Positions 24,630 to 25,289 are shown, counted from the first letter of the stretch. The stretch: DNA of 64,000 nucleotides from Clostridiales bacterium (GCA_012735575.1 JAAYGY010000050.1:9020-73019); one strand, 5' to 3'. Made by a program: numbers and translations. The notes: generated by a model not told the origin, from the letters alone.

Positions 24630-25289
24630 ATGAAAGGTGTATTGCCAAAAACTATTTTATTACTTGGTATGATTTCATTAATTTTAGGAAATATTGTATC
24701 CTATGGGAAAAGTATAAGCCATGCCGAGGATTTGGTATTGGTGGGAAAGGAAACAGGTCTCGAAATAATTCCGGAATCTGCTAGGTTATTTGATTTAACC
24801 AATCTAAATCCTGGTGATACTTATGAAGCTAATCTAATAATAGAAAATAAACATATTGCCCCATTTGAACTCTTTATGAGAACAGAGCGGATGAGTGAGG
24901 TTCCCAGGGAAGGGGAGGCTGACCTTTTCAAGCAACTTTTATTGACAGTATACTTAGGGGATAGCCAGGTATATTCAGGAAATATGATAGACTTTGCCAC
25001 AACCAATATCAGTTTAGGCAGCTTTTCCCGTAATGATACAAAAAAATTTAGAGCAGTAGTGCATCTGCCCGGACTTGAGACAGGGAATGAGTTTCAAGGT
25101 AAAACTTTAGATGTAAAATGGATATTTATAGCTCAGGCTGATAAAGAAAAACCTGAGGATCGTCCTAAGCCGGATTCAGAGGATGATGTTTTACCTAAAA
25201 CCAGAGATACAACTCCCATGGGATTCTATCTAGTAGGCGGTCTTTTATCAGGAATAGGCATAATTATTAACCGTAAAAAAAGAACATAG
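24630..25289 (+). CDS. TasA-like paralog 3 with C-terminal sorting-signal-like anchor (LPKTRD + TM + RKKRT)
   Basis: Shares NLNPGDTYEANLIIEN and NEFQGKTLDVKWIFIAQ blocks with paralog 2. P/E/D-rich stalk KEKPEDRPKPDSEDD, then LPKTRDTTPMGFYLVGGLLSGIGIIINRKKRT. RBS AAGGAGGG. Confidence 0.7.
   Translation: MKGVLPKTILLLGMISLILGNIVSYGKSISHAEDLVLVGKETGLEIIPESARLFDLTNLNPGDTYEANLIIENKHIAPFELFMRTERMSEVPREGEADLFKQLLLTVYLGDSQVYSGNMIDFATTNISLGSFSRNDTKKFRAVVHLPGLETGNEFQGKTLDVKWIFIAQADKEKPEDRPKPDSEDDVLPKTRDTTPMGFYLVGGLLSGIGIIINRKKRT

What the first reader, a model, noticed from the sequence alone, without database searches (positions are those of the whole stretch)
24630..25289. Third TasA-like paralog carries an off-consensus sorting signal (LPKTRD) one nucleotide away from LPKTGD
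Seen in sequence:
- The protein shares the NLNPGD...IIEN and NEFQG...DVKW blocks with paralog 2.
- It ends with a P/D/E-rich stalk, then LPKTRD, a 17-residue hydrophobic segment and RKKRT. This is the tripartite layout of a sortase substrate.
- The R codon is AGA. GGA would give the canonical LPKTGD.
- No sortase gene is present in the window.

Inference: there are three possibilities. It may be a substrate of a sortase with relaxed specificity. It may be a decayed sorting signal that now acts as a plain C-terminal membrane anchor. Or it may be a sequence variant or error. Any of these gives a TasA-fold subunit fixed to the envelope, which is not part of the B. subtilis paradigm.
Basis: partly seen in the sequence, partly recalled or inferred. 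Interest (0 to 1): 0.6.

Follow-up and report, generated by a model that had tools for sequence, protein, structure and literature searches.

The report
Anchored TasA-like subunit, Gly-to-Arg sorting motif
This gene encodes the cell-envelope anchor subunit of a TasA-type biofilm-fibre operon; the arginine that replaces the normally near-invariant glycine in its sortase motif is real, fixed in a small clade and apparently under selection, but anchored TasA-like subunits are already described in clostridia, so this is a modest variant of a known kind.

Summary
ORF 24630-25289 (+, 219 aa) ends in a P/D/E stalk, LPKTRD, a 17-residue hydrophobic segment and RKKRT. The Arg codon AGA lies at 25203-25205, not 25202. 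The Arg is not an error: six independent assemblies forming one clade carry xPKTRD, with AGA in some and AGG in others. The sister orthologue has IPKTGD. Of 85 distinct family tails, 72 have Gly at this position; xPKTRD occurs only in this clade.

The fold is TasA-like (Foldseek top hit is the TasA fibre 8AUR). The gene is last in an operon: secreted protein, SipW, two TasA/BsaA-like subunits, anchor. A two-component system and a c-di-GMP riboswitch lie upstream.

Distant relatives have a sortase gene beside the anchor gene. The window and its close relatives do not.

Within the Arg clade the block PKTRDTTPM shows 4 synonymous and 0 non-synonymous changes, while the flanks diverge. This argues against neutral decay. 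I lean towards a still-functional variant sorting signal (about 0.45) over a plain uncleaved membrane anchor (about 0.38). Whether the genome has a sortase could not be tested.

LPXTG-anchored TasA-like subunits are already noted in two preprints, so novelty is modest.

The parts
17332..17416 (+). c-di-GMP-I riboswitch upstream of the histidine kinase (regulatory context of the locus)
   Evidence: Rfam RF01051 scores 80.3 bits against a gathering score of 35. The same family is found in orthologous loci L001, L007, L010 and L016.
17996..19780 (+). HisKA_3-type sensor histidine kinase
   Evidence: ORF. The orthologous genes carry PF07730 and PF02518.
19777..20391 (+). NarL/LuxR-type response regulator; terminator-like hairpin follows at 20415-20437
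   Evidence: Pfam Response_reg 86.5 bits and GerE 67.9 bits. Terminator-like site.
21206..22645 (+). First operon gene: 479-aa secreted protein with signal peptide, acidic linker, variable middle and a conserved C-terminal SpaA/prealbumin-like domain. It has no sorting signal. Possibly an accessory or tip component (inferred).
   Evidence: The Pfam SpaA hit is weak (E 5.8e-4, 20.4 bits against a 23.1 cut-off). The C-terminal ~90 aa are conserved in the positional orthologues of L001 and L002.
22655..23242 (+). SipW-type (archaeal/ER-type) signal peptidase I
   Evidence: TIGR02228 scores 111.4 bits (cut-off 51.85). The SipW model NF046067 scores 103.7 bits, below its cut-off.
23269..23817 (+). 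TasA-like subunit 1 (182 aa) with a SipW-cognate signal peptide
   Evidence: TIGR04088 scores 21.7 bits (cut-off 19). The PF12389 hit is weak.
23860..24567 (+). TasA/BsaA-family subunit 2 (235 aa), the likely major fibre subunit (inferred)
   Evidence: TIGR04090 (BsaA family) scores 82.2 bits (cut-off 60), TIGR04088 37.7 bits and PF12389 49.4 bits.
24630..25289 (+). The finding: 219-aa TasA-fold subunit with a C-terminal sorting-signal-like anchor
24630..24725 (+). Signal peptide (aa 1-32). Predicted cleavage is after S-H-A32, and A32 is invariant in the family. The SipW-cognate motif was not detected.
   Evidence: AF2 helix at residues 4-27. A32 is invariant in alignment A1. No TIGR04088 hit. 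The cleavage site is inferred.
24729..25142 (+). TasA-like beta-sandwich domain (aa 34-171)
   Evidence: Block-mean pLDDT is 75-93 over aa 31-170. The Foldseek top hit is 8AUR_A, the TasA fibre.
25143..25190 (+). Short P/D/E/K-rich stalk (aa 172-187). It evolves fast.
   Evidence: pLDDT is below 50 over aa 174-193. Non-synonymous divergence (pN) is 0.24 against L001. Stalk length varies from 16 to more than 100 residues across the family.
25191..25208 (+). Variant sorting motif LPKTRD (aa 188-193); Arg192 codon AGA at 25203-25205
25218..25268 (+). 17-residue hydrophobic segment MGFYLVGGLLSGIGIII (aa 197-213)
   Evidence: Sequence. AF2 helix at residues 195-218.
25272..25286 (+). Basic tail RKKRT (aa 215-219), followed by the stop codon at 25287-25289
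   Evidence: Sequence.
25348..25385 (+). Intrinsic-terminator-like hairpin with a U-run, closing the operon
   Evidence: RNA fold gives a 14-bp hairpin followed by UUUUU. The 111-nt stretch has z -3.44, and 0 of 200 shuffles fold as well.

Best explanation
The gene encodes the envelope-tethered base (anchor) subunit of a SipW-dependent TasA/BsaA-type fibre. It is the last gene of an operon: secreted accessory protein, SipW, two TasA-like subunits, anchor. The operon sits next to a two-component system with a c-di-GMP riboswitch upstream.

Proposed mechanism, with the status of each step:
- The protein is exported through an N-terminal signal peptide (inferred).
- Its TasA-fold domain joins the fibre by donor-strand complementation with the other subunits (inferred, from published work on this protein family).
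- Its C-terminus holds the fibre at the cell through the tripartite signal (the layout is shown; its use is inferred).
- That signal descends from a canonical [L/I/P]PKTG[D/E] sortase signal (shown).
- One GGR-to-AGR transition in the common ancestor of a small Caldicoprobacterales-like clade replaced the residue just after the cleavage site (P1') Gly with Arg (shown).
- The variant has since been kept through synonymous AGA/AGG turnover, although a single transition would restore Gly. The surrounding block PKTRDTTPM shows no amino-acid change, while the stalk and the membrane segment diverge (shown).

From this I infer that xPKTRD is still a working recognition element. Most likely it is cleaved after Thr191 by a sortase encoded elsewhere in the genome. 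That sortase would read L/I-P-K-T plus the acidic residue that follows and would tolerate a non-Gly P1'. The subunit would then be linked to peptidoglycan. Before cleavage, or if cleavage is inefficient, the protein is held in the membrane by its hydrophobic segment and RKKRT tail.

Confidence is about 0.8 that this is the anchor subunit of a TasA-like fibre. It is over 0.95 that the Arg is real and clade-fixed. It is about 0.45 that the signal is still processed by a sortase.
For: - Layout, codon and synteny.
- Fold: the AF2 model and the TasA-fibre top hit.
- Operon partners: SipW and BsaA-family hits.
- Ancestral state: 72 of 85 distinct family tails have Gly at motif position 5.
- True sortase signal in the family: a sortase gene lies within the fetched flanks in 11 relatives. 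It is directly downstream of the anchor gene in L027, L029, L031, L035 and L036.
- Clade fixation: the Arg clade is monophyletic with IPKTGD (GGG) as sister. The Arg codon is AGA in the window, L057 and L059, and AGG in L001, L006 and L060.
- Selection: between the window and L001 or L006, the block PKTRDTTPM has 4.0 synonymous differences over 6.3 synonymous sites and 0 non-synonymous differences over 20.7 sites (Fisher p 0.0009). The flanks have pN 0.22 (p 0.02).
- One-residue defect: R192G in silico restores a strong TIGR01167 hit, 28.1 against 15.3 bits.
- Other non-Gly P1' tails in the family: LPRT[D/E/R/N/Y/L/A]G in 12 tails, one of them with a sortase gene nearby (L042). The motif ..TWEMPPY is conserved between P0373 and P0386 at 46% identity. 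P0364 has LVQTFD.
- Literature: L. plantarum sortase signals are LPQTXE with a variable fifth residue (PMC3619620). Several SrtA enzymes accept non-Gly P1' residues (PMC10763551).
Against: - I know of no experimentally verified sortase substrate with Arg at P1'. This is from my own knowledge, not tested here.
- S. aureus SrtA is strictly Gly-specific (PMC10763551).
- No sortase lies in the 64-kb window or in any fetched locus of the close relatives. Two database searches found no Caldicoprobacterales sortase among the best 120 hits each. A cognate enzyme is therefore unproven.
- The selection test rests on nine codons chosen after seeing the data and on one effectively independent lineage pair.
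- Complete erosion of the motif, with the hydrophobic segment and basic tail kept, has happened elsewhere in the family (P0377, P0398). Sortase-independent membrane anchoring is thus a real evolutionary outcome here.
- In C. perfringens strain 13, BsaA oligomers are membrane-anchored, not wall-anchored (PMC11580942).
- The tail falls just below the TIGR01167 cut-off.
Confidence: 0.45

Rival explanations
1. Disabled sorting signal used as a permanent C-terminal membrane anchor. The Gly-to-Arg change blocks sortase cleavage, or the lineage has lost its sortase. The subunit stays in the membrane through its hydrophobic segment and RKKRT tail and holds the TasA-like fibre base there instead of on peptidoglycan.
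For: - Gly at P1' is near-universal in this family: 72 of 85 tails, and 84 of 85 if Gly one position later is counted.
- The Arg costs about 13 bits on the LPXTG model.
- No sortase gene lies in the window or in the close relatives' loci.
- Other family members have fully eroded motifs but keep the hydrophobic segment and basic tail (P0377 MSLFGE, P0398 VPKKNS).
- C. perfringens strain 13 lost the LPXTG of its BsaB-like gene and anchors BsaA oligomers to the membrane (PMC11580942).
- In C. difficile the intact SPKTG motif is essential for wall attachment, and some motif-bearing proteins are not cleaved at all (PMC5569036).
Against: - A neutral, unused motif should drift. Instead PKTRDTTPM has 0 non-synonymous against 4 synonymous differences, while the adjacent stalk and membrane segment have pN 0.20-0.24.
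- Arg is kept through AGA/AGG turnover.
- The 16-residue stalk is very short for a membrane-held domain to reach through a Gram-positive wall. This point is inference.
Confidence: 0.38
2. The Arg has a new role unrelated to sortase. For example, K-T-R|D could be a site for a trypsin-like or dedicated protease that releases the fibre from its anchor, by analogy with ZmpI-mediated release of C. difficile sortase substrates. Alternatively it could be a juxtamembrane contact residue.
For: - The block including Arg is under purifying selection.
- c-di-GMP-linked regulation of anchoring and release exists in C. difficile (title and abstract of PMC4591827).
- c-di-GMP riboswitches accompany these loci.
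Against: - No candidate protease gene lies in the operon.
- Nothing in the data points to a protease specifically. The idea is not needed to explain the observations.
Confidence: 0.07
3. Sequencing or assembly error, or a private strain variant of an ordinary LPKTGD protein.
For: Only the fact that one nucleotide separates AGA from GGA.
Against: Arg is found in six independent assemblies from at least three data sources. These are the window, GCA_049277335.1, ENA ERZ773358, MAG JAAYKZ01 and JGI Ga0209537 (three contigs). They span two lineages at 83-84% protein identity and use two different Arg codons.
Confidence: 0.01

Closest known systems
C. perfringens BsaB-like TasA homologue with LPXTG next to srtB (sipW-bsaA-bsaB operon; PMC11580942, PMC7395162)
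   Same: - A SipW peptidase gene is followed by several TasA-like paralogs.
- One paralog carries a C-terminal sortase-type signal.
- A two-component system is linked to the operon.
- The proposed role is tethering the fibre to the envelope.
- The canonical motif has been lost or altered in one lineage (strain 13 there, the Arg clade here).
   Different: - No sequence-level hit to C. perfringens proteins appeared in my searches.
- Here no sortase gene is adjacent, and there is no VWA protein (BsaC).
- Here the motif is altered by a single conserved substitution. In strain 13 it was removed by recombination.
LPXTG-motif anchor proteins in bacterial AbpX/TasA-like clusters (e.g. Clostridium amylolyticum A0A1M6GRE1; bioRxiv 10.64898/2026.01.04.697558)
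   Same: - A TasA-like cluster with a signal peptidase I, a wall or membrane anchor protein and histidine-kinase or c-di-GMP regulators.
- The anchor is predicted to form donor-strand complexes with the fibril subunit.
   Different: - The published examples have canonical LPXTG.
- I could not compare sequences directly.
B. subtilis TapA (anchor and nucleator of TasA fibres)
   Same: It would play the same functional role: a minor component of the sipW operon that connects TasA fibres to the cell.
   Different: TapA has no C-terminal sorting signal or membrane segment and is not sortase-dependent. Its domain organisation differs. This comparison is from my own knowledge, not tested here.
Lactiplantibacillus plantarum LPQTXE sorting signals (PMC3619620)
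   Same: It is a natural sortase signal in which the fifth (P1') residue is not fixed as Gly and an acidic sixth residue is conserved. LPKT-R-D fits the pattern LPxTx[D/E].
   Different: - The taxon and the sortase (class A) differ.
- I could not verify that Arg occurs at X in L. plantarum.
- No cognate enzyme has been identified here.
Sortase-assembled Gram-positive pili, basal pilins (SpaB/BcpB type)
   Same: A minor subunit with a sorting signal is proposed to sit at the fibre base and fix the fibre to the wall.
   Different: - The fold is TasA-like, not CnaA/CnaB.
- Polymerisation would be by donor strand, not by sortase-made isopeptide links.
- There is no class C sortase in the cluster.

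Membership tests
LPXTG-type sortase substrate (cell wall sorting signal, TIGR01167) | Pentapeptide LPXTG (or an accepted variant) with Gly or another small residue at P1' | tested here: not met
   The motif is LPKTRD, with Arg at P1'. Orthologues L007, P0003 and P0004 have IPKTGD, PPKTGD and LPKTGE.
LPXTG-type sortase substrate (cell wall sorting signal, TIGR01167) | Model score at or above the curated cut-off | tested here: not met
   The window protein scores 15.3 bits against a cut-off of 15.9, and L001 scores 10.6. The R192G version scores 28.1, L007 24.3, P0004 23.9 and P0003 17.9.
LPXTG-type sortase substrate (cell wall sorting signal, TIGR01167) | Hydrophobic segment followed by a basic tail at the extreme C-terminus, plus an N-terminal signal peptide | tested here: met
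   There is a 17-residue hydrophobic stretch (aa 197-213) and the tail RKKRT. AF2 predicts helices at 195-218 and 4-27.
LPXTG-type sortase substrate (cell wall sorting signal, TIGR01167) | A cognate sortase encoded in the genome | not testable with these tools
   None is present in the 64-kb window or in the close relatives' loci. Database searches with cluster-linked sortases gave no Caldicoprobacterales hit in the best 120. The rest of the genome could not be read.
LPXTG-type sortase substrate (cell wall sorting signal, TIGR01167) | Cleavage after Thr and amide linkage to peptidoglycan | not testable with these tools
   This needs biochemistry or mass spectrometry.
TasA / camelysin / BsaA family (PF12389, TIGR04090) | Family HMM at or above its threshold | tested here: not met
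   PF12389 scores 21.6 bits against 22.5, matching only the C-terminal NEFQG block. There is no TIGR04090 hit. Several orthologues carry precomputed PF12389 hits. A PDB sequence-profile search found no TasA match.
TasA / camelysin / BsaA family (PF12389, TIGR04090) | TasA-like beta-sandwich fold | tested here: met
   The Foldseek top PDB hit is 8AUR_A, the TasA fibre (E 5e-6, probability 1.00, query-normalised TM-score 0.43 with both terminal helices included). Next come 7UEG archaeal bundling pili and donor-strand pilins. The model has pLDDT 77.6.
TasA / camelysin / BsaA family (PF12389, TIGR04090) | SipW-cognate signal peptide (TIGR04088) | tested here: not met
   There is no hit for this protein. 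Paralogs 1 and 2 score 21.7 and 37.7 bits against a cut-off of 19.
TasA / camelysin / BsaA family (PF12389, TIGR04090) | Encoded in an operon with a SipW-type signal peptidase and other TasA-like subunits | tested here: met
   SipW lies at 22655-23242 and the paralogs at 23269-23817 and 23860-24567. The genes share one strand with gaps of 9-62 nt and a terminator after 25289. The arrangement is syntenic in L001, L002 and L057.
TasA / camelysin / BsaA family (PF12389, TIGR04090) | Polymerisation by donor-strand exchange | not testable with these tools
   No multimer prediction or experiment was available.
Sortase-assembled pilus basal pilin | CnaA/CnaB-type pilin fold and a pilus-specific class C sortase in the cluster | tested here: not met
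   The fold is TasA-like, and no sortase lies in the cluster.

The most novel reading that the evidence does not exclude
The Arg-clade organisms may possess a sortase that naturally cleaves Thr|Arg. It would read L/I-P-K-T plus the following acidic residue rather than the P1' Gly. More broadly, the sortases serving TasA-like anchor subunits in Clostridia may use an LPxTx[D/E] or LPxTxG logic with a free P1' position (seen here as T-R-D, T-W-E, T-F-D and T-[D/E/R/N/Y/L/A]-G). That would be a new natural sortase specificity and a possible orthogonal enzyme for sortase-mediated ligation.
Probability: 0.3. Interest if true: 0.55.

Novelty: new variant of a known kind. Interest (0 to 1): 0.33.

Why it matters
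If the variant motif is really processed, it would point to a sortase with an unusual tolerance or preference at the residue after the cleavage site. That is of practical interest for protein ligation. It would also refine motif-based prediction of surface proteins in uncultured Clostridia, because the tail falls just under the curated LPXTG model cut-off.

If it is not processed, it documents an early, single-step stage in a switch from wall anchoring to membrane anchoring of TasA-type fibres. Other members of the family, and C. perfringens strain 13, appear to have completed that switch.

Either way, the locus is a clean example of a c-di-GMP-linked TasA-like fibre operon with a dedicated anchor subunit.

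Tried and rejected
- Sequencing error was rejected on the basis of six assemblies and two Arg codons.
- The sortase search in the window gave nothing, by regex and by an HMM built from eight cluster-linked sortases, run over all ORFs of the window and 63 loci.
- I tried to find a sortase from the same MAG or order with two large protein searches. One used a profile of eight sortases and one used the Mahellales sortase P0067. Neither gave a Caldicoprobacterales-labelled hit among the 120 listed, so the result is inconclusive, not negative.
- A metagenome scan with the whole protein found no relatives. A DNA pattern for PKTRDTTPM found three more orthologues plus three chance hits, L058, L061 and L063. 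These pattern-derived orthologues were not used in the selection test, because the pattern fixes the amino acids.
- A sequence-profile search of the PDB found nothing relevant.
- hhalign against paralog 2 was weak.
- I compared tail identity with domain identity across Gly-bearing pairs to look for relaxed constraint in the Arg clade. Tails evolve fast in most pairs, so the comparison was uninformative.
- An Rfam search of the 770-nt leader at 20400-21250 found nothing.
- I considered and dropped a sortase-assembled-pilus reading, because the fold and the cluster content do not fit.

Full report
**1. What is in the sequence**

- ORF 24630-25289 (+) encodes 219 aa and has a strong ribosome-binding site.
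- The protein has an N-terminal signal peptide, with predicted cleavage after S-H-A32. Next come a roughly 140-residue domain and a 16-residue P/D/E/K-rich stalk.
- It ends with LPKTRD (aa 188-193), TTP, a 17-residue hydrophobic segment (197-213), Asn and RKKRT.
- Arg192 is encoded by AGA at 25203-25205. GGA would give LPKTGD.
- On the curated LPXTG-anchor model the tail scores 15.3 bits, just under the 15.9 cut-off. Changing only Arg192 to Gly in silico raises it to 28.1 bits. Everything except that residue is a textbook sorting signal.

**2. Surroundings**

- The gene is the last of five co-oriented genes separated by 9-62 nt:
  - a 479-aa secreted protein with a weak SpaA-like C-terminal domain (21206-22645);
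  - a SipW-type signal peptidase (22655-23242; TIGR02228, 111 bits);
  - a 182-aa TasA-like protein with a SipW-cognate signal peptide (23269-23817);
  - a 235-aa BsaA-family protein (23860-24567; TIGR04090, 82 bits);
  - the anchored protein.
- A 14-bp hairpin with a U-run follows at 25348-25385.
- Upstream lie a HisKA_3 kinase and a NarL-type regulator (17996-20391) with their own terminator. A c-di-GMP-I riboswitch sits at 17332-17416.
- Downstream genes are unrelated: a DEAD-box helicase, RadC and MsrA.
- No sortase is encoded anywhere in the 64-kb window.

**3. Is it TasA-like?**

- Sequence similarity to paralog 2 is weak: BLASTP E 0.008 and 0.023, and hhalign probability 7%.
- Pfam PF12389 is just sub-threshold, and a PDB profile search finds nothing.
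- An AlphaFold2 model built on 22 homologues has pLDDT 77.6. Its best PDB match is the TasA fibre 8AUR_A (E 5e-6). The next matches are archaeal TasA-like bundling pili and donor-strand pilins.
- Several orthologues carry PF12389 hits.
- I accept the TasA-fold assignment on fold and operon context, not on the short shared blocks.

**4. The family and its tail**

- The protein belongs to a large family. There are 53 close database hits and 51 loci in GTDB species genomes. A search of clusters at 50% identity finds 2260 representatives at E<=1e-3.
- Members occur in Caldicoprobacterales-like Clostridia, Tissierellia, Gudongella, Tepidanaerobacter, Syntrophomonadaceae and other Bacillota.
- NCBI and JGI name many of them 'LPXTG cell wall anchor domain-containing protein', including the 99%-identical P0001.
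- Among 85 distinct complete tails from the first two sets:
  - 72 have Gly at motif position 5, mostly [L/M]P[K/R]TG[E/D/Q], plus PPKTGD and L[V/Y]QTGA;
  - 12 have a non-Gly residue followed by Gly (LPRTDG six times, LPRTEG, LPRTRG, LPPTNG, LPRTYG, LPQTLG, LPRTAG);
  - 2 have xPKTRD, and both belong to the window's own clade (two regex artefacts corrected by hand).
- In 11 more distant loci a sortase gene (TIGR01076 above its cut-off, class C/D/E-like) lies in the fetched flanks. In L027, L029, L031, L035 and L036 it is immediately downstream of the anchor gene. The tail is therefore a genuine sortase signal in this family.
- The window's closer relatives (L001-L026) have no linked sortase, whether they carry Gly or Arg.

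**5. The Arg is real and clade-fixed**

- The window is 99.87% identical over 20.7 kb to contig JBASYE010000022.1 of a Caldicoprobacterales MAG, GCA_049277335.1. That contig has the same AGA codon.
- Positional orthologues at 83-84% protein identity carry IPKTRD encoded by AGG. One is from an ENA assembly (L001) and one from a separate MAG (L006), and the two differ at 19 nt.
- A DNA-pattern scan found three further variants in a JGI metagenome (L059 with AGA; L060 and L062 with AGG).
- In a neighbour-joining tree these sequences form one clade. Its sister (L007, 68% identity) has IPKTGD encoded by GGG.
- The parsimonious history is one GGR-to-AGR transition in the clade ancestor.
- Synteny (kinase/regulator, X, SipW, two TasA-like genes, anchor, RadC, MsrA) shows these are true orthologues.

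**6. Decay or function?**

- Nei-Gojobori counts were made between the window and L001 or L006. Both were found by whole-protein homology, so they are unbiased with respect to the motif.
  - Domain: pS 0.33, pN 0.05.
  - Stalk: pN 0.24.
  - Hydrophobic segment plus tail: pN 0.20.
  - Block PKTRDTTPM: 4.0 synonymous differences over 6.3 sites and 0 non-synonymous differences over 20.7 sites. Fisher p is 0.0009 against neutrality and 0.02 against the flanks.
- Arg also persists although a single A-to-G transition would restore Gly.
- These data argue that the variant motif, Arg included, is under purifying selection rather than drifting.
- Caveats: the block was delimited after seeing the data. 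It has nine codons, and there is effectively one independent lineage pair.
- The wider family shows both outcomes.
  - Stable non-Gly variants: ..TWEMPPY.. is shared by P0373 and P0386 at 46% identity, P0364 has LVQTFD, and there is the x-Gly class.
  - Fully eroded motifs that keep the membrane segment and basic tail: P0377 and P0398.

**7. Literature**

- Obana et al. (PMC7395162) defined the sipW-bsaA operon of C. perfringens, which has an adjacent srtB.
- The Melville-lab preprint (PMC11580942) reports four relevant points:
  - most C. perfringens strains have a BsaB-like TasA homologue with an LPXTG motif;
  - strain 13 lost that motif;
  - BsaA oligomers in strain 13 are membrane-anchored;
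  - BsaA/TasA genes often sit with LPxTG, SpaA-domain, signal-peptidase and sortase genes.
- A 2026 preprint (10.64898/2026.01.04.697558) describes LPXTG anchors in bacterial TasA-like clusters. AF3 predicts that they form donor-strand complexes with the fibril subunit.
- The concept of an envelope-fixed TasA-fold subunit is therefore already in the literature.
- On motif tolerance:
  - S. aureus SrtA is strictly Gly-specific at P1', but S. pyogenes SrtA and others accept several residues (PMC10763551);
  - L. plantarum uses LPQTXE (PMC3619620);
  - in C. difficile the SPKTG motif is essential, and some motif-bearing proteins are not processed (PMC5569036).

**8. Verdict**

- The protein is best read as the anchor subunit of a c-di-GMP-linked SipW/TasA-type fibre operon.
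- Its Gly-to-Arg motif is a fixed and apparently selected clade character, not an error.
- I lean slightly to continued sortase processing by a P1'-tolerant enzyme encoded elsewhere (about 0.45). The main rival is an uncleaved membrane anchor (about 0.38).
- The decisive datum, whether these genomes have a sortase and what its specificity is, could not be obtained with the tools. Two database searches were inconclusive.
- Novelty is modest: a new variant of a known kind.

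Noticed in passing
window 17332-17416 (+); also L001 46-131, L007 985-1070, L010 9241-9322 and 11043-11117, L016 9095-9173: c-di-GMP-I riboswitches (RF01051 or RF03167) accompany these TasA-like loci. In the window one sits upstream of the histidine kinase. 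In L010 and L016 one sits directly in front of the anchored-subunit gene, and L010 has a second copy downstream of it. This suggests c-di-GMP control of fibre or anchor production.
   Followed up: partly
L037, L041, L042, L043, L045, L046, L048, L049, L051, L052, L055, L056 (C-termini of the matched genes): A subfamily, mostly from Syntrophomonadaceae and unclassified Bacillota, carries LPxT-x-G motifs (LPRTDG, LPRTEG, LPRTRG, LPPTNG, LPRTYG, LPQTLG, LPRTAG). The residue after Thr is variable and Gly comes one position later. L042 has a class D/E-like sortase gene about 1.6 kb away. I do not know of a described sortase motif of this form.
   Followed up: partly
P0373, P0386, P0364, P0374, P0377, P0398: Other family members also have non-Gly tails. 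VPPTWE and LPATWE are conserved as ..TWEMPPY.. at 46% identity. LVQTFD and VKKTSD also occur. Fully eroded motifs (MSLFGE, VPKKNS) are still followed by a hydrophobic segment and a basic tail.
   Followed up: partly
L047 (C-terminus of the matched gene): The sorting motif is doubled, LPKTGELPKTGAF, and a sortase gene lies nearby.
   Followed up: no
window 9115-9303 (+): 6S RNA gene (RF00013, 75.7 bits).
   Followed up: no
window 20438-21205: About 770 nt without ORFs lie between the regulator's terminator and the first operon gene. A promoter-like site (TTGGTA-16-TATAAT) sits at 20566-20593. There is no Rfam match even at E<=1. In L001 the equivalent interval holds a 369-aa S26-like gene on the other strand and a 180-aa ORF, and a DUF5305 gene lies upstream of the kinase. 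The 2026 preprint calls DUF5305 a signal-peptidase accessory module.
   Followed up: partly
window 24586-24602 (+): A G+C-rich hairpin (GGGGAGC-ACT-GCTCCCC) without a T-run lies in the 62-nt gap between subunit 2 and the anchor gene. It could attenuate read-through or stabilise the mRNA, setting a lower anchor-to-subunit ratio. This was read from the sequence only.
   Followed up: no
window 24642-24653 (aa 5-8 of the protein): The signal peptide itself contains LPKT (MKGVLPKTILLL). It is also present in L001, L006, L059 and L060, and L007 has MPKI. This is probably coincidence, since the stretch lies in the n-region of the signal peptide.
   Followed up: no
P0001 (GCA_049277335.1), equivalent to window 24630-25289: NCBI's annotation names the Arg-variant protein 'LPXTG cell wall anchor domain-containing protein'. 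In my scan the near-identical window protein (2 substitutions, same C-terminal tail) falls just below the TIGR01167 cut-off, at 15.3 against 15.9 bits. The more diverged Arg orthologue L001 scores only 10.6 bits, and its cluster P0002 has no name.
   Followed up: partly
window 21206-22645 and its positional orthologues L001 6974-8059 and L002 7256-8047: The first operon gene varies widely in length (479, 361 and 263 aa). It keeps the signal peptide, the acidic linker and a roughly 90-aa C-terminal SpaA-like domain (FDFxIxGP..YT..L..S.TL..L.YG.Y.IKE.VPM.F). The window's version has a large insert that is absent from the other two.
   Followed up: partly
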